40,095 bases of DNA from a virus (Duplodnaviria; Heunggongvirae; Uroviricota; Caudoviricetes): positions 1 through 40,095 of the IMG/VR virus record IMGVR_UViG_2740892121_000006; one strand, written 5' to 3'. Each line of letters starts with the position of its first letter. Positions within the stretch are counted from its first letter, which is position 1. The notes beneath the pieces were generated by a model that did no database searches, had not been told where the DNA came from, and saw only the letters and a list, made by a program, of their open reading frames with translations. Positions 3,151-34,936 of the stretch are shown one piece after another. The position numbers were made by a program, and so were the translations under genes.

Positions 3151-5613
3151 TCAATTCCCTGTTAATTGCAAAACTTGCTCTTCCAGCTTTTTAACCCTGC
3201 GTCTCATCATCGCAGATTCCAGAATCAGAGCCTCTTCATAACGGATACCGTAACATTCACCAGCCTCGACGGCTTCGCGTACCAGAACCTTTGTCTGTAT
3301 AAGTGGGTAAACTCCTGCAGAATGCTCTTCTTCCGTCACATCCCTGTATTCTGCCGGGGTCTCATTCCACTTGTCATAACAGATAAATGCCAGTCGTGAC
3401 ACATCTATGCCTTCATTCTGAAATACACTGATAACATGCTGCGCAACTGCACCAAAGTGCCATCTTGCTCCGTCTTTACCTTTCACTTCGATCCTGTCAA
3501 GGTACTGGTATGAAACCCATTCCACTCTTTCCCATGCGTCCAGTATTTTCTCATCAATAACCTCTGGAGCAGTCTTGAAACGCGCATCGGACAGCACCGT
3601 AAACGCTGACTGGGTAAATCCCCCCGACCATGCACGACCAGCCAACCCAAGAGAATAAGTATTCGTTTTCGATGGTGTCATGGCTGAATCAGAAAACTGT
3701 ATATATTCTGAATTTCCAGTAGATATTCGAATATTTCCATTTATTAGCGACATAGTGCCTTTAGTATTATCACTATTGAATAATTTCAATTGCGAACTTA
3801 TACCGCCTCCCACAGCCAGAGATACATCGCCTTCAGCAAGCATTCTGAATTTATCTGCAGAAACAAGCGTCTGGTTAGCAAGGTTAAAATATTTAACCCA
3901 CCATTCAAAACGCCCTGACATAGTCCCAACGTACTGACCAAGCGCAGGGACGTGAACAACATTGCTATTTGTAGTGCCGTCTATACTGGAAATACCAGTC
4001 ACCGCTGATGCAGAACTCAGAATATTATTTCTGTCACCCGGATGTTTAATTTCAACAAAGTTCCTGATACACCCTTCCTCGAAGGTAACCACGCCGGAAG
4101 AACTATACATGGGGAATATTGACGCATAATTACTGCGTGCAGCATCTAAGAAACGAATGGTTGTAGATGTCTGCAGATCTCCTGATTCATTTTTCCCATC
4201 ACACCCAGTCATTAGAATATTACTGGCAATATTATTATTTCCCTGAACGGTGACGCCGTGCGCCTGCTTTGCGTCCGATTCAGAGTAATCAACCAGCACA
4301 TTCGAAATCAGGTTACCAGTCCCCTTGCCAACAACTACTGCGGCGTATTTTGGGTTGTTAGCCATTACACTGCTAATGATATTATTCGTTGGTGCAGTTT
4401 CCGTCTCAGTTCCATTGTAAACAACGTGCTGACACTCTTCACCAATAACATTGCTGACAATGTTATATTTTGCTGCTGTTTTAAGTTCCACTGCACCAAA
4501 CTGAGGATAATTTCTGGCTATCACACCATCAATTAGCGTATTTTGCGATGAATCAAAAAGCACACAACCTGCTTTTTTATTATTTGCGAACCCTAAATAC
4601 TCTCCTCTTATATCTCTAACAATGTAACCTGACGGAATACCATTATTCGGATAAGCGATCAAGCTAAATCCTGTTCCTCGCGTATTTGTAAATCTGATAT
4701 TTTTAACCGATACATCATGGCCACCTGAAAATGACACCTGGTGTCCCTGCACACTATCATCTGATTTATTTCCCATAATTGTTAGCGTACTAAGCATGCC
4801 ACCATCGGGCATGTTAAAAACCAGATGATTACCATCTCTGTCATACTGTTTTATCGTTCCCCCACCTGTTCCGTACAAGCCACAACGTGAAAGAGAAACT
4901 AAAGATGTATTGAATACCCCTTCCGGAACAAAAACACTGCTAAACGAATGTAATGATTTTGTAAAAGCATCCTTGTTATCATTTAAGATTCCATTTTGAG
5001 CTCCAAAATCCTTAATGCTGACACCATCACGCATCTTATCCTGGAACGTTCTGTATACCGCTCCAGAACCATACTGAATAAACCAACCAAAACCACCAAT
5101 AACTCCGGCGATTGCAGCATCGACATAATTACGCATTGAGCGATTATTTACAGCGTCCTGCTCAAGTGATGGATCGGCAAGGTTAGATATTCTGTTTTGC
5201 TTTGCATCGTAATATTTTGCAAGCAAAGATGGTTTCATCAATGCACGTCTGAACCACCCAAAACATCGCTGGATCAGCATCGTCAGGTAGTCAAATGCAT
5301 CCTCATGAACTTCGGGGAAAAATTTTCCCTGATTGCGAAGATCAGTCTCCTGCACCACATCAAGCACACGCTCTATCGTGATTCGCCAGCCAGCAGCAAG
5401 CGGCGACGGAAGAACCACTGCACCGCCACTATAAGTTCCCGCCCCTGTTACCGTATAACCAGCATCCAGCACTAGTTTTGTAACGTTACCGTTAAGGTCA
5501 GACACCTGAACAACCAGGTCGGATTTTTTGAAAATACGGAAGGTATACGGAAATGATGTCGTAACGCCGTTACCTGTGTATTCGTTGTGGTCAACTTCGG
5601 TTGAGACCGTCAT
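3151..5613 (-). CDS. Tailspike / tail fibre with T7-fibre-like N-terminal anchor and C-terminal S74 intramolecular chaperone
   Basis: N-terminus YTGNGVTTSFPYTFRIF resembles phage tail-fibre N-domain; long Gly/Asn/Ser-rich central region (beta-helix-like); C-terminus SDARFK...GARWHFGAVAQHV matches endosialidase-chaperone (peptidase S74) pattern; SD GGAG. Confidence 0.8.
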   Translation of the reverse strand: MTVSTEVDHNEYTGNGVTTSFPYTFRIFKKSDLVVQVSDLNGNVTKLVLDAGYTVTGAGTYSGGAVVLPSPLAAGWRITIERVLDVVQETDLRNQGKFFPEVHEDAFDYLTMLIQRCFGWFRRALMKPSLLAKYYDAKQNRISNLADPSLEQDAVNNRSMRNYVDAAIAGVIGGFGWFIQYGSGAVYRTFQDKMRDGVSIKDFGAQNGILNDNKDAFTKSLHSFSSVFVPEGVFNTSLVSLSRCGLYGTGGGTIKQYDRDGNHLVFNMPDGGMLSTLTIMGNKSDDSVQGHQVSFSGGHDVSVKNIRFTNTRGTGFSLIAYPNNGIPSGYIVRDIRGEYLGFANNKKAGCVLFDSSQNTLIDGVIARNYPQFGAVELKTAAKYNIVSNVIGEECQHVVYNGTETETAPTNNIISSVMANNPKYAAVVVGKGTGNLISNVLVDYSESDAKQAHGVTVQGNNNIASNILMTGCDGKNESGDLQTSTTIRFLDAARSNYASIFPMYSSSGVVTFEEGCIRNFVEIKHPGDRNNILSSASAVTGISSIDGTTNSNVVHVPALGQYVGTMSGRFEWWVKYFNLANQTLVSADKFRMLAEGDVSLAVGGGISSQLKLFNSDNTKGTMSLINGNIRISTGNSEYIQFSDSAMTPSKTNTYSLGLAGRAWSGGFTQSAFTVLSDARFKTAPEVIDEKILDAWERVEWVSYQYLDRIEVKGKDGARWHFGAVAQHVISVFQNEGIDVSRLAFICYDKWNETPAEYRDVTEEEHSAGVYPLIQTKVLVREAVEAGECYGIRYEEALILESAMMRRRVKKLEEQVLQLTGN

Positions 5614-5716
5614 GTTAAATCTCCAGATAGTCGCAGCACCCGTTGCGCCGCATATCTGGTTATTCTATTACCCAAAAAACCATATATGGATAGAAAGACT
5701 GTGAATATGAATAGAT

Positions 5717-5733
5717 ATTACCTTTCAGGTAAT
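5717..5733. promoter_or_regulatory. 17-bp palindrome ATTACC-N5-GGTAAT (candidate repressor operator)
   Basis: ATTACCTTTCAGGTAAT, perfect 6-bp inverted arms; about 75 bp upstream of small ant-like gene. Confidence 0.5.
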
Positions 5734-5769
5734 TTGCAAAACGTGCTGGATAGCAAACAAATTATTTGC

Positions 5770-5789
5770 TACTGTATAAATATACAGTT
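5770..5789. promoter_or_regulatory. LexA box (SOS operator)
   Basis: TACTGTATAAATATACAGTT = CTGT-N8-ACAG with AT-rich core, 18/20 match to TACTGTATATATATACAGTA; ends 6 nt before the first ATG. Confidence 0.7.
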
Positions 5790-5809
5790 ATTGCATGGAG
5801 AAGATTAAG

Positions 5810-6067
5810 ATGCAGCAGTATCACTATCCACTGGAAGAGGGATTTACCGAAAGGATTCACACGCCGGGAGGCGTCAGGTCACTGGTGGAGGGATCGCACT
5901 TGATGAAATTACTCCGGGATCTCGATAAGGATGGATTTAATGTCGATGGCCCACTTGCCGAACTGACTGCACTGATTAACTACGTCACCAGCTCACAGAT
6001 GTCTATGCAGGATCTGCAAACACATCTCGACTATTGTGCCGAACAATTACGAAAGCAAACCACATAA
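5810..6067 (+). CDS. Small antirepressor-like protein (stand-alone copy of Ant C-terminal domain), LexA-controlled
   Basis: About 40 percent identity by eye to the C-terminal 65 aa of the Ant protein at 7534-8226; start at second ATG (SD GGAG 9 nt upstream); track start 5795 also possible. Confidence 0.55.
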   Translation: MQQYHYPLEEGFTERIHTPGGVRSLVEGSHLMKLLRDLDKDGFNVDGPLAELTALINYVTSSQMSMQDLQTHLDYCAEQLRKQTT

Positions 6068-6090
6068 AGAAAAGGCCGCAAGAGCGGCCA
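6068..6090. terminator. Hairpin terminator between convergent genes
   Basis: Stem GGCCGC / GCGGCC (6074-6089) with loop AAGA; A-run on plus side gives T-run for minus-strand transcript ending gene B. Confidence 0.5.
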
Positions 6091-6597
6091 TTAACAGTCG
6101 AAAAATTCTGGGTCCCACAAACTTGCATCGCGCGGCATGGATTCTAACTTTTTCAGCCGCAAAATTCTGTCACACTCGACAACTAATTTTTGCTTCTGCT
6201 CGTCAATTTCTACTGTCTTATGTGCTGGTTCATCCCAATAATCCAGAAGGAAGGCATGGCGTTCAGATGTGACCAGATAAATCACATACACGTCACTGGT
6301 TGGGATCTTTTTATGCTTGTTAGTGGTCTTGTCTTTCTTCCCAGACGCCCAGTTTTTCCAGCATTGTTCCGTACCGCTCTCACCAAACTTGTCAGTATAG
6401 TTTCCGATGTTTACATGAACGTGGCGTATGTGATATTCCAGCATCTCTTTCGGTGGATCCCGAAACAGAGTGTCCTTTCCGAAATCCTTATGATGACCGT
6501 AGCGCCAGTGATCTATGAACGCGTTTTTGATAGGTATTAGCTCAGGGTCCTTCCCAAAAATTCCAGGGTGAACCAACCCCTGGAATTTATTCGGCAT
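6091..6597 (-). CDS. Hypothetical protein (gene B of two-gene moron operon)
   Basis: 168 aa from ATG 6597 (SD AGGAG), start overlaps last codons of gene A by 11 nt; His-rich segments GHHKDFGKD, HIRHVHV; no family recognised; track ORF extends to 6660. Confidence 0.5.
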   Translation of the reverse strand: MPNKFQGLVHPGIFGKDPELIPIKNAFIDHWRYGHHKDFGKDTLFRDPPKEMLEYHIRHVHVNIGNYTDKFGESGTEQCWKNWASGKKDKTTNKHKKIPTSDVYVIYLVTSERHAFLLDYWDEPAHKTVEIDEQKQKLVVECDRILRLKKLESMPRDASLWDPEFFDC

Positions 6598-7114
6598 CGT
6601 CGTAGAGCTCCTGAGCCATATCTTCAGCAGTGCGTGCAAACATCCTGCGCGAGATTGCATGGGATTTCTCTACGGACATCTTTGGGACCTCATGCATAAC
6701 AAGTTGATGAGTTTTCTCATCAACTTGAAGTGGCTTGTATAAACGTTGCCACCTTTCGTTAATTTTATCCTTAAAGCCAGCGAAACCACTTTCCTGACTC
6801 TTGTATCCAAAATGAGATAAAGCCAAATTCCTTTCCATTTCATTCCTAATGTACTCAGCAAGGTTGCAGTGGAATACTTCCCCTTGTTTTTTTAGGCATG
6901 CTTCATGGTCTGTAACACTGTGACGGCTCTCATATAAGTAAATGCGATAGGAATTTTTATTATCCTCTTCTTCATAATTTCTAATCGCATCAGCAGTTGC
7001 CATAGCTGCAGCGTAAGCGGCTGCTTCAATCACCATCTCTTGCTCTTTTTCTTTTTCAGGCCTTTTCAAGGCAAAGCGTCTATGCCTCATCGCTGTAACT
7101 CTCTTCGTGTTCAT
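6587..7114 (-). CDS. Hypothetical protein (gene A of two-gene moron operon)
   Basis: 175 aa from ATG 7114 (G-rich SD); basic N-terminus, largely helical, acidic C-terminus; no family recognised; track start TTG 7126. Confidence 0.5.
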   Translation of the reverse strand: MNTKRVTAMRHRRFALKRPEKEKEQEMVIEAAAYAAAMATADAIRNYEEEDNKNSYRIYLYESRHSVTDHEACLKKQGEVFHCNLAEYIRNEMERNLALSHFGYKSQESGFAGFKDKINERWQRLYKPLQVDEKTHQLVMHEVPKMSVEKSHAISRRMFARTAEDMAQELYDDAE

Positions 7115-7125
7115 GGGCACCCCCA

Positions 7126-7142
7126 ACTACCTTTAGGGTAAA
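7126..7142. promoter_or_regulatory. Degenerate copy of the 17-bp palindrome
   Basis: ACTACCTTTAGGGTAAA, one mismatch per arm; overlaps the translation-initiation region of gene A. Confidence 0.35.
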
Positions 7143-7250
7143 CATTCTATCGAAAGTATACGCTCACTGGCAAAAAAATAGGCAGGTATTTTCTGAAATG
7201 GGATCAATCAAACCACATAGGGTTGAAATAACGTGAGTTATGCATTTATT

Positions 7251-7267
7251 ATTACCTTTACGGTAAA
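7251..7267. promoter_or_regulatory. 17-bp palindrome (candidate operator) upstream of ant
   Basis: ATTACCTTTACGGTAAA; preceded by TTGAAA-N17-TTATTA promoter-like hexamers on plus strand. Confidence 0.45.
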
Positions 7268-7359
7268 TTTACATTGCACTCCTCTTGTGCCATAGTAATC
7301 AGGCACTGGCAAAATCCAGTGCCGGGATTGGTCTCCCGGATTACTACAGAGGCACATAT

Positions 7360-7379
7360 GCCGCATAAGCGGTTTTTTT
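7360..7379 (+). terminator. Intrinsic terminator-like hairpin plus U-run inside the ant leader
   Basis: GCCGC-ATAA-GCGG followed by TTTTTTT; two further hairpins just upstream (7302-7323, 7322-7339). Confidence 0.4.
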
Positions 7380-7533
7380 ATGTGTAAAGCGCACCTATTC
7401 TATGGTGGGCTGTGTGGGGGCACCGAAAGGTGCGCCGGGTTCCTTTGTAGCCGGTAAGACCAACTCTGCACAGTTCACCACCATCTGATTGGTCTCAGCG
7501 GTGGTGATTAACCTAACTACAAAGGTGATCGCC

Positions 7534-8226
7534 ATGAATACCAAACCTTCCATCTTTTCCTTTGAGTCATCCTGCCAGATCCGTATGTTCATGATTGACG
7601 GAGAACCTTGGTTTGTCACCAAAGATGTGTGCAATGCTTTGAATATTGATGTTACACAAGCGAGAAAACTTGATAAAAAAGGCTGGAACAAAAAGGGGCT
7701 GTATTCAATACAGACCCCTGGTGGAATACAAGAACTATCCATCGTTTCAGAATCAGGTCTCTACATCCTTATTCTGCGTTGCAAAGAGGCAATGACAGAG
7801 GGAACGAGAGCATTCAGATTTCTTGAATGGGTTACAGGTGAGGTTCTTCCTCAGATCCGCCGCACCGGAAGTTACATTAAAAACTCGCTCCCGCAGGAAG
7901 AACGCATAAAGATGGTTGCCGACCAGGTAGCCAACGCCACAGCATCAGCAGTGATGCAGGCAATGAAGATAGAGAACAAAACCTACAGTGCCCCACTGAA
8001 GCCCGGCTACCGCAGCCTGATTCACTCGCCGTCTGGTGTTCTCGGCCTGACGGAGAACTCACTGCTGATGAATCTGCTGAACCAGTTACAGGACGACGGG
8101 CACGACGTATCGGGCGCGGCGGCGGAGCTGACCACCATGTTCTGCTACATCGTTGGTGTGAGCAAATGCCTGCGTGATATCCAGACGCACGCGGAGTACA
8201 TCAACGACAAAGCAGGGTTCTTCTGA
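7534..8226 (+). CDS. Antirepressor (Bro-N/AntA-type N-terminal domain plus C-terminal domain)
   Basis: N-terminus IRMFMIDGEPWFVTKDVCNALNI...GLYILILR typical of Bro-N/Ant domain; ATG 7534 with SD AAAGGTGA; track ORF begins at TTG 7489. Confidence 0.7.
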   Translation: MNTKPSIFSFESSCQIRMFMIDGEPWFVTKDVCNALNIDVTQARKLDKKGWNKKGLYSIQTPGGIQELSIVSESGLYILILRCKEAMTEGTRAFRFLEWVTGEVLPQIRRTGSYIKNSLPQEERIKMVADQVANATASAVMQAMKIENKTYSAPLKPGYRSLIHSPSGVLGLTENSLLMNLLNQLQDDGHDVSGAAAELTTMFCYIVGVSKCLRDIQTHAEYINDKAGFF

Positions 8227-8309
8227 CGGAGGCGGCACAGGGATGTGCCTACAATTATCAATAATTGTTTACACTCGTTGCAGTTAAAAGCATTATACTC
8301 ATGTTTAAA

Positions 8310-8326
8310 ATTACCCGATTGGTAAA
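8310..8326. promoter_or_regulatory. 17-bp palindrome (candidate operator)
   Basis: ATTACCCGATTGGTAAA just downstream of a TATACT -10-like hexamer and 20 nt before ATG 8347. Confidence 0.45.
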
Positions 8327-8346
8327 GTCGATTGGTTGAGGTTCAT

Positions 8347-8673
8347 ATGAGCAGAAGATATGTCAAGGAGCTGGCTATAGAGTCTGGCACCCCTTTGGGT
8401 ATCGTTCCTGGCTCCAACTATGCCAAGGCTTTAAACCGAGACTCTGTCGTCAAAGTTATATCAAGAGACATGAATATGGTCGGAGACGATCTCAGACGGT
8501 CAGAAAATCGTGTTTATGCTGAATATATAGTAAAGAACGGAAAAAAAATTGCAGCGCCTGCTGGCGGAAAATGGGCAATAGTGACAGGGAAAAACTCAAA
8601 TGCAAGAGGAAAACCAGAAGCTAAAGGAATGTCCTTCGACAAATATGCAAAAATCTATTGGGCAACCAAGTGA
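8347..8673 (+). CDS. Hypothetical protein (moron operon, first gene)
   Basis: 108 aa from ATG 8347 with SD GAGGT; basic, no recognised motif. Confidence 0.45.
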   Translation: MSRRYVKELAIESGTPLGIVPGSNYAKALNRDSVVKVISRDMNMVGDDLRRSENRVYAEYIVKNGKKIAAPAGGKWAIVTGKNSNARGKPEAKGMSFDKYAKIYWATK

Positions 8674-9148
8674 TAACGAAGAAACTGAGTTCGAGGAAGT
8701 TGAGGAAGGGCTAAGTAACGAGATCATTCAACACCCAGATGCCTTCACAAGAGTTCTTGATCGCCCTGAAATTCAGGAGATAGTTGTCGCTCACCATGCG
8801 TTTCAGGGTCCGCTTCCTCCCCCCTATCTGCTTCGCGGGTATCAGGATATTTTACCTGATGCCCCCGAACGCATCTTCCAGCTGACGGAGAAGGAGTTTG
8901 CTCACCGCCAGAAAATGGAGGAAAAGGCACTTGACGGGGCTATTAATAGAGATAAACGTGGGCAGTGGTTTGGCCTGAGTGCAACTATTTTTACAGTAGC
9001 TTGTGCAACATTATTAGGTTTAACAGGTCATGAAGTTCTAGCTGGCACAGTGATCGGTACAGTTGTTGCAGTGGCTGGTATTTTCGTTCTTAGACAAAAA
9101 CCAAGCATCAAGAAGAAATCTGAAGACAACAAACCTGAAGAAAAGTAA
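8600..9148 (+). CDS. Membrane protein, acidic N-terminal domain plus two C-terminal TM helices (DUF2335-like by recollection)
   Basis: C-terminal hydrophobic helices FGLSATIFTVACATLLGL and TVIGTVVAVAGIFVL; start ambiguous (ATG 8600 or 8645); overlaps upstream gene. Confidence 0.45.
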   Translation: MQEENQKLKECPSTNMQKSIGQPSDNEETEFEEVEEGLSNEIIQHPDAFTRVLDRPEIQEIVVAHHAFQGPLPPPYLLRGYQDILPDAPERIFQLTEKEFAHRQKMEEKALDGAINRDKRGQWFGLSATIFTVACATLLGLTGHEVLAGTVIGTVVAVAGIFVLRQKPSIKKKSEDNKPEEK

Positions 9149-9439: not shown

Positions 9440-9889
9440 CTACTTGCGAAATCTTTCTTTACCCTTCCAGCCAGTAGATGTTAGTTCAGGATGAATGGTT
9501 CCCAATATAAAGCCAACCATAGCGGAGCGAGGATCTTCTATTTTATCCGTTAATTCTTCGGCATAACTCACAGGCAACCAAGCAACAAGATCACCAATCC
9601 TCAGCTTTGGTCCTTTGCTGTAAGATGAATCGGCAATAACAAAAAATCCACCATCAGCTGAGCACACCTTCAGCATTGCCCTTTGTCTTCCAGAATCTAG
9701 CAAAACTGGCTGTTCCCCACTTGGACCAGGTATGATGATGGCTGGCATTGGTTTATTGGCTGAAAGGCTTGTGTCAAGATACTTACACGCATACTCAAAA
9801 GCTGAAAAGTTATCCTTAAAGATAAGAGGTTGAATTTTATTGCTAACCTCCTTACCACCGATTAATCTGTTGATCATCTTCTTGAACAT
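9440..9889 (-). CDS. Hypothetical protein
   Basis: 149 aa from ATG 9889 with SD AGGTGA; track start is GTG 9898; no family recognised. Confidence 0.45.
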   Translation of the reverse strand: MFKKMINRLIGGKEVSNKIQPLIFKDNFSAFEYACKYLDTSLSANKPMPAIIIPGPSGEQPVLLDSGRQRAMLKVCSADGGFFVIADSSYSKGPKLRIGDLVAWLPVSYAEELTDKIEDPRSAMVGFILGTIHPELTSTGWKGKERFRK

Positions 9890-9901
9890 AAAGGTCACCT
9901 A

Positions 9902-10342
9902 ATGATTAAGCCGATGCACGCTATTACAGCTACCGTTTTGTTTATCCTACCAATTTTTTCGTTTGCAAACGACATATGTTTTAAGAATTTAATAAATGAG
10001 GATATGTGTGCACATGCAAACAAAATTGCATCAGAAGCAGGAAAGTCACTTCCCATAAAATTGAATGATAATATGTCTATTGTTTCAATAAATGCAATAC
10101 TAAACAAACTTTTAGTTGTAGCGCATCTTAATTACAACAACAGCTATTTATCAAAAGTTTATAACGGTGATGTAACCTTAGAAAATAAATTAAAGAGTGT
10201 AATGCGAAATTATTCAAAATCGAGCATTTGCTCCAACAGGCAAATGAAAGCATTTATTCACCTTGGCGGAGAGATTGAATATAGGTATGTATTTAGTGAT
10301 GGCAATATATTTGATACATACGCCATCACTAATTGTGAATAG
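9902..10342 (+). CDS. Secreted Cys-containing protein of unknown function (AT-rich moron)
   Basis: Signal peptide ending FSFA; 4 Cys; markedly AT-rich coding sequence; SD AAGGT; start only 13 bp from the divergent start at 9889. Confidence 0.45.
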   Translation: MIKPMHAITATVLFILPIFSFANDICFKNLINEDMCAHANKIASEAGKSLPIKLNDNMSIVSINAILNKLLVVAHLNYNNSYLSKVYNGDVTLENKLKSVMRNYSKSSICSNRQMKAFIHLGGEIEYRYVFSDGNIFDTYAITNCE

Positions 10343-26122: not shown

Positions 26123-26199
26123 GTGGCATTAGCTCAGTTGGACAGAGCAACCGCCTTCTAAGCGGTTGGTCGCAGGTTCGAATCCTGCATGCCACGCCA
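26123..26199 (+). tRNA. tRNA-Arg (anticodon UCU, reads AGA)
   Basis: Cloverleaf read by eye: acceptor GTGGCAT/ATGCCAC, D-arm AGCTCAGTTGGACAGAGC, anticodon loop CUUCUAA, T-arm GCAGGTTCGAATCCTGC, discriminator G, encoded CCA. Confidence 0.85.
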
Positions 26200-34197: not shown

Positions 34198-34243
34198 AGC
34201 TATTGCCTGATATTTATTTCAGATAATAAATATTCACCCATAA

Positions 34244-34297
34244 GGTAACAAAAATCAAGGATAGTTACCCATGAGGTGCATTTACCTGTTGGGTAAT
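34244..34297. promoter_or_regulatory. Operator cluster in the cI-cro intergenic region
   Basis: TTTACCTGTTGGGTAAT (34281-34297) plus inverted half-sites GGTAAC-N14-GTTACC (34244-34269) overlapping a minus-strand TTGATT-N17-GAATAT promoter-like element. Confidence 0.5.
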
Positions 34298-34351: not shown

Positions 34352-34936
34352 ATGAAAAGTATCCAGGACGTCCGCAGGCAAAATCTCAACGACTTGATCG
34401 ACCGTGAATTCAATGGTGTTCAGACGCGGATGGCAGAAAAACTTGGAACTCAGGCAAATCTGGTAAACCGCTGGGCTCTTGGCAAGAAGGTTATCGGCGA
34501 CCAGGTTGCGCGAAAAATTGAAGCTGCCGCCAATAAACCACGTAACTGGCTTGATATCGATCGCTCGCTTTCTCAGGAAGGTTTTCAGCCTGTCGGCCCA
34601 AGCGACATTGGTCAGCTGGCGGCTCACAACCTGGAACGCTGGATGAGCGAAAGCCGCGACCTTTCAACTCAGGGAAAACTTCACCGCGCATCCGGCGTCG
34701 CCCAGGTGACAATCAGCCGCCTGTTAAACAATGAGGTCAGTGTTTCCATTTCCACCCTGGAGAATGTTGCATCAGCATTCGGGCGTCACGGCTATGAATT
34801 ACTGATTCACCCGCACGACCCTGCGACCATCAACTATGACCGCTCGCGCTACGCATTGTTACCCGAAACCGAGAAAGCAAAGATCGAAAGTTACATTGAA
34901 TTTGTCATCAACCAGAACGAAAAAAACAAACAATAA
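34352..34936 (+). CDS. CI-like repressor with two tandem HTH (XRE-type) domains, no S24 peptidase domain
   Basis: HTH-like segments at residues about 25-65 and 105-150; no Ala-Gly/Ser-Lys protease signature; divergent from cro-like gene. Confidence 0.65.
   Translation: MKSIQDVRRQNLNDLIDREFNGVQTRMAEKLGTQANLVNRWALGKKVIGDQVARKIEAAANKPRNWLDIDRSLSQEGFQPVGPSDIGQLAAHNLERWMSESRDLSTQGKLHRASGVAQVTISRLLNNEVSVSISTLENVASAFGRHGYELLIHPHDPATINYDRSRYALLPETEKAKIESYIEFVINQNEKNKQ

What the first reader, a model, noticed from the sequence alone, without database searches (positions are those of the whole stretch)
5810..8226. Two antirepressor paralogues: full-length Ant and a stand-alone copy of its C-terminal domain
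The C-terminal 65 aa of the Bro-N-type Ant (7534-8226) and the small protein (5810-6067) align by eye at roughly 40 percent identity (shared GV.L.E.S.LM.LL..L..DG..V.G..AELT.....V......D.QTH..Y). The modular duplication suggests the C-terminal domain is the repressor-binding module, present once fused to a Bro-N domain and once alone under LexA control.
Basis: seen in the sequence. Interest (0 to 1): 0.5.

Follow-up and report, generated by a model that had tools for sequence, protein, structure and literature searches.

The report
Two antirepressors sharing one repressor-binding domain
This phiV10/epsilon15-like E. coli phage carries the same small repressor-disabling domain twice, once alone behind a DNA-damage (LexA) switch and once fused to a Bro-N domain behind a P1-style antisense-RNA switch; each part is of an already known kind.

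Summary
The 85-aa ORF (5810-6067) and residues 149-222 of the 230-aa Bro-N protein (7534-8226) align without gaps at 42% identity (BLASTP E=1e-15; z=29 against 5,000 shuffles).

The small protein is an orthologue (about 89% identical) of Salmonella phage SPC32H Ant, solved in complex with its repressor (PDB 5D50). A perfect LexA box lies 22 bp upstream, and an SPC32H-type Rep is encoded at 34352-34936. The long protein's C-terminal domain matches the same PDB chain (E=1.6e-13).

The C4 loops pair with the ant ribosome-binding site. Relatives show compensatory changes that define two specificity types while Rep stays 98.5-100% identical, which parallels P1/P7 immI heteroimmunity.

In related prophages the same slot holds AntA-, Rha- or P22_AR_N-fused versions of the domain. 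Natural small/long chimeras also exist.

A published overexpression test in sibling phage ZX5 supports antirepressor activity of the long form.

Verdict: confirmed. It is a member of known kinds (SPC32H Ant, P1/N15-type RNA-controlled anti-immunity). The paralogy link was not mentioned in the papers I could read. Interest is moderate.

The parts
5718..5732 (.). TTACCTTTCAGGTAA palindrome (probable Rep operator). It ends 1 bp before a TTGCAA -35-like hexamer upstream of the small ant.
   Evidence: TTACC-N5-GGTAA has 15 sites (at most 1 mismatch) in the window against 0.74 expected. The same element is upstream of ant in SPC32H, EC.W1-9, Tyrion and the Klebsiella phage.
5772..5787 (.). LexA (SOS) box CTGTATAAATATACAG, 22 nt upstream of the small ant start codon.
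   Evidence: Exact match to CTGT-N8-ACAG. It is AT-rich inside, as in the consensus. An equivalent box lies upstream of SPC32H ant.
5810..6067 (+). Small stand-alone antirepressor Ant (85 aa), orthologue of SPC32H Ant.
   Evidence: PDB 5D50_E E=5e-48 over aa 2-85. About 89% identical to SPC32H ant by tblastn. phrog_450 E=1.6e-47.
6074..6089 (.). G+C-rich hairpin GGCCGC..GCGGCC just after the small ant stop codon. The scan calls it terminator-like on the - strand only; its palindromic stem could also end the small ant transcript.
   Evidence: Terminator scan; sequence.
7252..7266 (.). TTACCTTTACGGTAA palindrome (probable Rep operator) abutting the -35 of the isrK promoter.
   Evidence: It is conserved 51 nt upstream of isrK in every related locus, including the AntA and Rha versions.
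7268..7296 (+). Promoter-like site TTTACA-17-CATAGT (with TG before the second hexamer), placed to start transcription at isrK.
   Evidence: Promoter scan; isrK model position 1 is at 7303.
7303..7379 (+). isrK-family sRNA with its own terminator. It carries a1 (TTGGTCT, 7328-7334) and b1 (CTACAGAGG, 7344-7352), which are complementary to the C4 loops.
   Evidence: Rfam RF01394, 74.7 bits (gathering score 50). Motif positions. a1/b1 pair with a'/b' in 109/109 cells, with 2 compensatory pairs.
7398..7485 (+). C4 antisense RNA, with b' CCTTTGTAG at 7442-7450 and a' AGACCAA at 7457-7463.
   Evidence: Rfam RF01695, 78.6 bits (gathering score 45). Motif positions.
7489..7525 (+). C4 target in the ant leader: a2 TTGGTCT (7489-7495) and b2 CTACAAAGG (7517-7525). 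b2 overlaps the Shine-Dalgarno AAGGTGA of the long ant.
   Evidence: All 109 cells are paired across 7 phages, with 2 pairs changed on both sides and one co-deleted pair; slid controls give 24-50% paired.
7534..8226 (+). Long antirepressor (230 aa): Bro-N domain (aa 16-106, nt 7579-7851), helical linker, then the Ant-type C-terminal domain (aa 149-225, nt 7978-8208).
   Evidence: Pfam Bro-N. PDB 5D50_E E=1.6e-13 for aa 149-225. phrog_450 E=4.8e-37 for aa 147-228. 80% identical overall to ZX5 ORF4, and identical apart from one residue from about aa 105 onward.
34352..34936 (+). Rep, the SPC32H-type prophage repressor (194 aa) and presumed target of both antirepressors.
   Evidence: PDB 5D50_A E=4e-42 over aa 1-190. 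HTH_3 at aa 106-147 plus a weak, below-threshold YdaS-type match at aa 21-61. 100% identical in phiV10, ZX5 and EC.W1-9.
34234..34296 (.). Cluster of operator-like palindromes in the intergenic region upstream of rep: TCACCCATAAGGTAA at 34234 and TTACCTGTTGGGTAA at 34282, with a degenerate copy between them.

Best explanation
The window is a phiV10/epsilon15-like (Uetakevirus) temperate phage whose lysogeny is held by an SPC32H-type Rep. It encodes one Rep-inactivating domain twice, wired to two different inputs.

(1) The 85-aa stand-alone Ant is repressed by host LexA. DNA damage removes LexA, Ant is made, it binds Rep and takes it off its operators, and the prophage is induced. The sequence features are shown here. 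The function is inferred from about 89% identity to SPC32H Ant and from the solved Rep-Ant complex.

(2) The Bro-N-Ant fusion is the effector of a P1/P7/N15-style secondary immunity (anti-immunity) module. Transcription starts at the isrK promoter and mostly stops at the isrK terminator. Read-through RNA carries C4, whose a'/b' loops pair with a2/b2 and cover the ant ribosome-binding site, so a lysogen makes no long Ant. An infecting genome, or one entering a cell whose resident prophage makes a C4 of the other specificity type, can translate long Ant. Long Ant then inactivates Rep through its C-terminal domain and favours lytic growth or overrides Rep immunity.

The C-terminal domain is the part specific to this lineage's Rep. 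The N-terminal Bro-N, AntA, Rha or P22_AR_N domains are interchangeable, and their role is unknown. A TTACC-N5-GGTAA palindrome, probably the Rep operator, abuts both ant promoters. This suggests that Rep also damps both genes, so that Rep inactivation would reinforce itself; that step is inference.
For: Paralogy is significant.

The small Ant matches 5D50_E at E=5e-48, and the long C-domain matches the same chain at E=1.6e-13. A Rep homologue of 5D50_A is present. There is a perfect LexA box with the same layout as in SPC32H.

isrK and C4 score above the Rfam gathering thresholds directly upstream of the long ant. The same pair is found in all 8 related loci examined: EC.W1-9, phiV10, TL-2011b, Tyrion, a Klebsiella phage, ZX5, and the AntA- and Rha-fusion prophages.

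The C4 loops pair with the ant Shine-Dalgarno region in 100% of cells, and a1, a' and a2 change together in three places. This defines types A and B, while Rep is 98.5-100% identical between type A and type B phages.

The domain is portable. TL-2011b gp42 is P22_AR_N plus this domain (90% identical), sited next to an Arc-like repressor and a sar RNA. AntA, Rha and ORF6N fusions also exist.

Natural 84-aa chimeras join the N-half of the small Ant (50/51 identical) to the C-half of the long type (32/33 identical). One of them (P0095, whose two halves are of the small and the long type respectively) lies on a contig with a near-consensus LexA box and no isrK or C4.

In ZX5, overexpression of a long Ant that is identical bar one residue from about aa 105 onward, in a phage with an identical Rep, lowered the prophage titre from 1e9 to 1e6 and cut rep transcripts by 75% (PMC9782041).

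A review groups Kim and Ryu 2013 (the SPC32H paper) with the Salmonella prophages induced by LexA-repressed antirepressors (PMC7380047). SPC32H Ant is described as a tetramer that binds two Rep dimers (PMC9638917).
Against: There are no binding data for either protein of this phage.

The long C-domain differs from the small Ant at 58% of positions. I could not map the 5D50 interface residues because the primary papers are not held.

The long copy is dispensable in nature. It is absent from SPC32H, epsilon15, PAS61 and BUCT554 and frameshifted in phiV10.

The C4 covariation amounts to one evolutionary event (type A versus type B).

The ZX5 experiment used a GST-tagged, overexpressed protein.

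The assignment of the palindrome to Rep rests only on its enrichment and its position.
Confidence: 0.7

Rival explanations
1. In the fusion protein the shared C-terminal domain serves only as an oligomerisation (tetramerisation) module. The biological activity of the long protein would then reside in the Bro-N domain, for example DNA binding or action on another target, and would not involve Rep.
For: SPC32H Ant is a tetramer (PMC9638917), so the domain does carry an oligomerisation function. Bro-N proteins bind DNA in other systems (PMC7313666). The long-type domain is only 42% identical to the small Ant.
Against: The N-domain is the variable part in the same genomic slot (Bro-N, AntA, Rha), while the C-domain and the RNA control stay constant. 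Natural chimeras put the long-type C-half into a stand-alone Ant on a contig with a LexA-like box and no isrK or C4. Polar residues are invariant across both classes: Y4, H17, D41, E51, T71, H72. The ZX5 long Ant lowers lysogeny.
Confidence: 0.12
2. The long Ant is aimed mainly at repressors of other, related prophages (crosstalk or anti-immunity against competitors) and not at the phage's own Rep.
For: Gifsy antirepressors act on non-cognate repressors (PMC3121763). The small Ant is 89% identical between phages whose Reps are only 42% identical, so this domain family tolerates Rep divergence. TL-2011b carries three copies of the domain.
Against: Divergence of the long C-domain tracks the phage's own Rep in the three clades sampled: 98-100%, 78% and 53% against 98.5-100%, 78% and 45%. 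The ZX5 long Ant affects ZX5's own lysogeny. This reading overlaps with the best explanation more than it excludes it.
Confidence: 0.13
3. The similarity arises by chance or from composition, or the long copy is a decaying remnant without function.
For: phiV10 and O157 typing phages 9 and 10 carry a frameshift inside the C-domain.
Against: z=29 against shuffles. Independent profile hits to 5D50_E and phrog_450. An intact module covering at least 80% of the query is present in 118 of 5,426 complete E. coli genomes. It is conserved in Enterobacter and Klebsiella phages.
Confidence: 0.03

Closest known systems
Ant-Rep antirepression system of Salmonella phage SPC32H (Kim and Ryu 2013; Kim et al. 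2016; PDB 5D50/5D4Z)
   Same: The small Ant is about 89% identical to SPC32H Ant. It sits in the same position downstream of the tailspike gene, with the same LexA box and the same upstream palindrome, alongside a homologous Rep.
   Different: Rep here is only about 42% identical to SPC32H Rep. SPC32H has no second, fused copy and no isrK/C4.
immI of phages P1 and P7 (c4 antisense RNA, icd, ant; Citron and Schuster 1990, as cited in PMC7313666)
   Same: A C4-family RNA lies just upstream of an antirepressor gene. Its a'/b' loops are complementary to repeats both upstream (a1/b1) and at the RBS (a2/b2). Two specificity types occur with an unchanged primary repressor, as in P1/P7 heteroimmunity.
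   Different: No icd-like coupled ORF is evident; b2 overlaps the ant Shine-Dalgarno sequence itself. The upstream repeats lie in a separately terminated isrK sRNA. The host phage is a podovirus, and the Ant effector domain is SPC32H-type. Homology to P1 Ant was not tested.
Phage-plasmid N15: RNA-controlled immA (antA-icd-antB) plus the separate, SOS-controlled antC (PMC4488713; Mardanov and Ravin 2007)
   Same: The logic is the same: one antirepressor under LexA for induction, plus a second anti-immunity operon controlled by a small processed RNA. N15 AntB shares the Bro-N domain, 49% identical over 112 aa.
   Different: N15 AntB has an unrelated C-terminal region, and none of the small N15 proteins I tested resembles it (I did not identify antC with certainty). 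Here the two antirepressors are paralogues in their effector domain.
Gifsy-1 isrK-orf45-anrP locus (Hershko-Shalev et al. 2016, PMC4825925)
   Same: An isrK-family sRNA with a leaky terminator is followed by an antirepressor-like gene that is transcribed but kept translationally silent.
   Different: In Gifsy-1, IsrK acts in trans as an activator through orf45. Here there is no 45-codon ORF, only a 28-codon ORF inside C4, and the complementarity points to C4 as the repressor, with IsrK as a possible decoy. That decoy role is untested.
APSE phages of Hamiltonella: isrK + c4 + BRO-N gene cassette (PMC7313666)
   Same: The same three-part cassette has been noted, with c4 a'/b' matching the region upstream of the BRO gene.
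   Different: APSE phages belong to a different phage lineage. No link to an SPC32H-type Ant domain or to a second LexA-controlled copy was described there.
Escherichia phage vB_EcoP_ZX5 ORF4 'anti-repressor' (PMC9782041)
   Same: Sibling phage with an identical Rep and a long Ant that is identical apart from one residue from about aa 105 to the end. Overexpression reduced lysogens about 1000-fold.
   Different: Its Bro-N domain carries nearly all of the differences between the two proteins, and its C4 is type B. That paper does not mention the small Ant, which is annotated as hypothetical in the record, the paralogy, or the RNAs.

Membership tests
SPC32H-type Ant (PDB 5D50 chain E; phrog_450) | Full-length sequence homology to the crystallised 86-aa Ant | tested here: met
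   Small ORF: E=5e-48 over aa 2-85. Long ORF, aa 149-225: E=1.6e-13. phrog_450: E=1.6e-47 and 4.8e-37.
SPC32H-type Ant (PDB 5D50 chain E; phrog_450) | LexA box at the ant promoter | tested here: met
   Met for the small copy, with a perfect box at 5772-5787. Not met for the long copy: there is no box in 7130-7533 apart from a one-mismatch hit inside C4.
SPC32H-type Ant (PDB 5D50 chain E; phrog_450) | A cognate SPC32H-type Rep encoded in the same genome | tested here: met
   34352-34936 hits 5D50_A at E=4e-42. All 32 phage records that carry the Ant domain also carry a Rep homologue.
SPC32H-type Ant (PDB 5D50 chain E; phrog_450) | Same fold as chain E | tested here: inconclusive
SPC32H-type Ant (PDB 5D50 chain E; phrog_450) | Tetramer that binds Rep and releases it from DNA | not testable with these tools
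   Needs biochemistry or multimer modelling. Only monomer prediction is available here.
Bro-N domain proteins (PF02498) | Pfam match above the gathering score | tested here: met
   Long protein aa 16-106: 51.4 bits against a cut-off of 25.6.
P1/P7 immI-type C4-controlled antirepressor | C4 antisense RNA directly upstream of ant | tested here: met
   RF01695: 78.6 bits against a gathering score of 45, at 7398-7485.
P1/P7 immI-type C4-controlled antirepressor | a'/b' loops complementary to a2/b2 at the RBS and to upstream a1/b1 repeats, with covariation between immunity types | tested here: met
   109/109 cells paired, 2 compensatory pairs, one co-deleted pair.
P1/P7 immI-type C4-controlled antirepressor | An icd-like ORF translationally coupled to ant | tested here: not met
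   Only a 28-codon ORF (7402-7488) lies inside C4. b2 overlaps the ant Shine-Dalgarno sequence itself.
P1/P7 immI-type C4-controlled antirepressor | C4 processed from the precursor, and translational repression of ant | not testable with these tools
   Needs RNA mapping and reporter fusions.
isrK sRNA (RF01394) | Rfam match above the gathering score, with its own terminator | tested here: met
   74.7 bits against a gathering score of 50, at 7303-7379. Terminator hairpin at 7360-7373 followed by a T run.
P22 Ant (P22_AR_N / immI with Arc, Mnt, sar) | P22_AR_N domain above the Pfam threshold | tested here: not met
   Window long Ant: 17.6 bits against a cut-off of 30.7. It is met only by the third copy in TL-2011b, gp42 (153.6 bits), which lies next to an Arc-like gene and a sar RNA.
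186 Tum / Gifsy GfoA-type LexA-controlled antirepressors | Sequence homology to Tum or GfoA | not tested
   No Pfam or NCBIfam family hit for the small Ant. The resemblance is functional only: a LexA-controlled small antirepressor.

The most novel reading that the evidence does not exclude
Uetakevirus-type phages may use one portable 'Rep-binding warhead' domain as a plug-in. The same domain is wired to LexA (stand-alone), to an isrK/C4 RNA switch with P1/P7-like heteroimmunity types (behind interchangeable Bro-N, AntA or Rha heads), and in some phages to an Arc/sar P22-type switch. Recombination between the copies creates new antirepressors. If this holds, the C-terminal domains of the many Bro-N/KilA-N-type proteins annotated as antirepressors would in general be the repressor-specificity modules. 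Mixed small/long tetramers could also couple the SOS and superinfection inputs.
Probability: 0.35. Interest if true: 0.55.

Novelty: new member of a known kind. Interest (0 to 1): 0.4.

Why it matters
The result gives a concrete, testable domain assignment for a Bro-N 'antirepressor': the C-terminal 80-90 aa is the Rep-binding part.

It links the structurally solved SPC32H Ant to a larger set of fusion proteins. PHROGs still lists that domain family (phrog_450) as of unknown function.

It indicates that phiV10-like E. coli prophages have two-part immunity: Rep plus a C4 RNA that comes in at least two specificity types. At least 80% of the isrK-C4-ant module is found in 118 of 5,426 complete E. 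coli genomes. This predicts which of these phages can superinfect, or induce, each other's lysogens despite identical repressors.

Every component is of a known kind, so the gain is better annotation and a tidy model system. No new principle is involved.

Tried and rejected
1. AF2 on the whole long Ant from a single sequence failed (pLDDT 34).

3. RNA duplex energies of C4 against the ant leader and against isrK were only about 2-3 sd better than shuffles. The argument therefore rests on covariation.

4. The SPC32H primary papers (J Virol 2013, PNAS 2016) are not in the library. I could not map the Ant-Rep interface residues or confirm the Rep operator sequence. What I say about those papers beyond searches comes from memory of their abstracts.

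5. I tested whether the N15 pair shows the same paralogy. N15 AntB shares only Bro-N, and none of the small N15 proteins I tested matches its C-terminus. The paralogy is therefore not a general rule.

6. PADLOC, Pfam and NCBIfam scans of the flanking ORFs gave nothing usable.

7. Chance similarity is rejected.

8. Membership of the P22-type Ant family is rejected for the window's long protein, because P22_AR_N scores below threshold.
Full report
**What the window is.** The region 5600-8400 is 98% identical to Escherichia phage EC.W1-9. It matches phiV10, TL-2011b, ZX5 and other epsilon15-like podoviruses (genus Uetakevirus) in pieces. The two ORFs lie between the tailspike gene (3151-5613, - strand) and the virion structural genes (from 10343, - strand).

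**Checking the observation.** Both ORFs exist as described.
- BLASTP aligns small aa 2-75 with long aa 149-222 at 31/74 identities (42%), without gaps, E=1e-15.
- The Smith-Waterman score of 159 compares with a mean of 26.5 (sd 4.5, maximum 63) over 5,000 shuffles of either partner. This gives z of about 29-30 and a Gumbel p of about 1e-17.
- At the DNA level only 104 of 222 aligned bases match, so the duplication is old.
- Pfam places Bro-N at aa 16-106 of the long protein.
- A perfect LexA box (CTGTATAAATATACAG, 5772-5787) lies 22 nt upstream of the small ORF.

**Identity of the small protein.** It hits a single PDB sequence: chain E of 5D50, the 'Anti-repressor protein' of the Rep-Ant complex of Salmonella phage SPC32H, at E=5e-48 over its whole length. 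It is about 89% identical to the annotated SPC32H ant gene. SPC32H ant sits in the same place after the tailspike gene, with the same layout of palindrome, LexA box and GGAG-ATG. A Salmonella prophage review groups Kim and Ryu 2013, the SPC32H paper, with the prophages induced by LexA-repressed antirepressors (PMC7380047). [quoted passage not shown] The window also encodes the partner. ORF 34352-34936 hits 5D50 chain A (Rep) at E=4e-42, and it is 100% identical in phiV10, ZX5 and EC.W1-9 but only about 42% identical in SPC32H.

Rfam finds an isrK sRNA (7303-7379, 74.7 bits) and a C4 antisense RNA (7398-7485, 78.6 bits) immediately upstream of the long ant.
- C4's loop b' (CCTTTGTAG, 7442-7450) and its single-stranded a' (AGACCAA, 7457-7463) are exactly complementary to b2 (CTACAAAGG, 7517-7525) and a2 (TTGGTCT, 7489-7495). 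b2 overlaps the Shine-Dalgarno sequence 9 nt before the ATG.
- Copies a1 and b1 lie in isrK.
- In seven phages all 109 cells of these 16 pairs are paired, against 24-50% when the partner is slid by 1-3 columns.
- Three phages (phiV10, TL-2011b, ZX5) have changed two a-pairs on both sides and co-deleted one b-pair. The same changes appear in a1, a' and a2.
- This gives two specificity types: A (this window, EC.W1-9, Tyrion, the Klebsiella phage) and B. Rep is 98.5-100% identical between the E. coli type A and type B phages.

This is the logic of P1/P7 immI, where c4 regulates ant through complementary upstream regions (as summarised in PMC7313666). I recall from established P1/P7 literature that heteroimmunity there lies in c4 and not in c1. 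The covariation amounts to one evolutionary event, so it is supportive and not overwhelming.

**Modularity.**
- The cassette is the same in every relative: palindrome, isrK promoter, isrK, C4. The palindrome always sits 51 nt before isrK. The C-terminal domain is also constant, but the N-terminal head varies.
- Heads seen in the same slot after the small ant are Bro-N (this window and others), AntA (L010) and Rha (L011).
- A search of 1.84 billion representative proteins found only 68 clusters. Besides stand-alone forms of 80-100 aa, these include Bro-N, AntA, Rha and ORF6N fusions.
- TL-2011b carries a third copy, gp42: P22_AR_N plus this domain (90% identical to the window's), next to an Arc-like repressor gene and a sar RNA. 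That is a P22 immI-type control.
- Between the window and ZX5, the long Ants are identical apart from one residue from about aa 105 onward and diverge in Bro-N.
- Two 84-aa stand-alone proteins are clean chimeras. P0112 is 50/51 identical to the Klebsiella small Ant in its first 51 residues and 32/33 identical to the Klebsiella long C-domain in the rest. P0095 lies on a contig with a near-consensus LexA box, the palindrome, and no isrK or C4. If these chimeras are functional, the two paralogues' halves are interchangeable in a stand-alone antirepressor.

**Experimental hint for the long form.** In ZX5, overexpression of ORF4 (the Bro-N 'anti-repressor') lowered the prophage titre from 1e9 to 1e6 and reduced repressor transcripts by 75% (PMC9782041). 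ZX5 Rep is 100% identical to the Rep here. That paper mentions neither the small Ant, which is annotated as hypothetical in the record, nor the RNAs.

**A probable Rep operator at both promoters.** TTACC-N5-GGTAA occurs 15 times (at most 1 mismatch) against 0.74 expected. Sites include the rep-upstream intergenic region (34234, 34282), the small ant promoter region (5718) and the isrK promoter, where it abuts the -35 (7252). Further sites lie at 7127 and 8311 in front of neighbouring accessory genes. The element is conserved upstream of ant in SPC32H and the other relatives. I infer that this is the Rep (and/or Cro-like) operator, and that Rep also acts on both ant promoters. That step is not shown.

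**Mechanism proposed.**
- In the lysogen, Rep holds the lytic promoters, LexA holds the small ant, and C4 blocks translation of the long ant.
- DNA damage removes LexA. The small Ant then disassembles Rep and the prophage is induced (by homology to SPC32H).
- The long Ant works as an anti-immunity effector. It is translated when no matching C4 is present, either early in infection or in a lysogen of the other C4 type, and it inactivates Rep through the shared domain.

Shown here: the sequence features, the homologies and the covariation. Inferred: binding of the long form to Rep, the direction of C4 control, and the role of IsrK. IsrK could be a decoy for C4 through a1/b1, or a trans-activator as in Gifsy-1 (PMC4825925).

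**Comparison with known systems.**
- The small Ant is a member of the SPC32H Ant family.
- The long Ant's control module is a member of the C4/isrK family already noted next to BRO genes in APSE phages.
- The two-input design has a precedent in N15, which has an RNA-controlled immA operon plus a separate antC whose expression starts induction (PMC4488713). The cited Mardanov and Ravin 2007 title places antC in the SOS regulon. N15 AntB shares only the Bro-N domain, and none of the small N15 proteins I tested matches its C-terminus.
- The papers I could read do not mention that the SOS antirepressor and the RNA-controlled antirepressor of one phage are paralogues in their effector domain, nor that this domain is exchanged among five kinds of N-terminal head. 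PHROGs implicitly groups these sequences (phrog_450, labelled 'unknown function').

**Prevalence.** At least 80% of the isrK-C4-long ant module is found in 118 of 5,426 complete E. coli genomes, and parts of it in 484. The long copy is absent from the Salmonella members and frameshifted in phiV10 and O157 typing phages 9 and 10. It is therefore accessory.

**Verdict.** The elements are members of known kinds, and interest is moderate (0.4).

Noticed in passing
window 7303-7379 and 7398-7485 (+): isrK sRNA and C4 antisense RNA lie directly upstream of the Bro-N antirepressor gene. The C4 loops are complementary to the ant RBS and to repeats inside isrK. Related phages fall into two compensatory specificity types.
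   Followed up: yes
window 5718, 7127, 7252, 8311, 25786, 28913, 28931, 31933, 31995, 33897, 34234, 34282, 34994, 35056 (15-nt sites): The palindrome TTACC-N5-GGTAA is about 20-fold enriched (15 sites against 0.74 expected) and mostly intergenic, including the region upstream of rep and both ant promoters. It is probably the Rep/Cro operator and may outline the whole Rep regulon.
   Followed up: partly
window 6091-6660 (-) and 6587-7126 (-): Two overlapping ORFs of unknown function (phrog_1651, phrog_9503; no Pfam family; only weak PADLOC noise) are inserted between the two ant genes. They have their own promoter-like site (7173-7144) and a one-mismatch palindrome at 7127. They are absent from ZX5 and phiV10, so they look like an accessory (moron) cassette.
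   Followed up: partly
window 8332-8673 (+), 8600-9148 (+), 9440-9898 (-), 9902-10342 (+): More accessory ORFs lie after the long ant: phrog_10654 (unknown function), a DUF2335 membrane protein, and two ORFs with no family. TL-2011b and contig L007 carry a YafO-family toxin gene downstream of ant, in the corresponding region.
   Followed up: no
L002 (phiV10) 4203-4456: The Bro-N antirepressor of phiV10 and of O157 typing phages 9 and 10 is split by a frameshift inside the Ant-type domain (annotated as p23 plus a 29-aa p22). This is either a natural loss of the second antirepressor or a sequencing error.
   Followed up: partly
L003 (TL-2011b) 7437-8621 (-): A third copy of the domain lies at the C-terminus of a P22_AR_N 'Ant' (gp42), next to an Arc-like repressor gene and a sar antisense RNA. 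This amounts to a P22 immI module carrying the uetakevirus effector domain.
   Followed up: partly
P0095 / L007 4001-4255; P0112: Natural 84-aa chimeras join the N-half of the small Ant to the C-half of the long-type domain. The P0095 contig lacks isrK and C4. This is consistent with recombination between the two paralogues deleting the interval between them.
   Followed up: yes
L011 10001-10960: The gene called here as a 319-aa Rha-Ant fusion runs across isrK and C4, so its N-terminus is over-called. The true start is probably near codon 80.
   Followed up: no
window 26123-26199 (+): A tRNA-Arg (anticodon TCT) is encoded in the phage.
   Followed up: no
window 34352-34936 vs SPC32H Rep: The small Ant is about 89% identical between this phage and SPC32H, but Rep is only about 42% identical. 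Either Ant contacts a conserved Rep surface or it tolerates considerable Rep divergence, which would allow cross-induction between phages.
   Followed up: no
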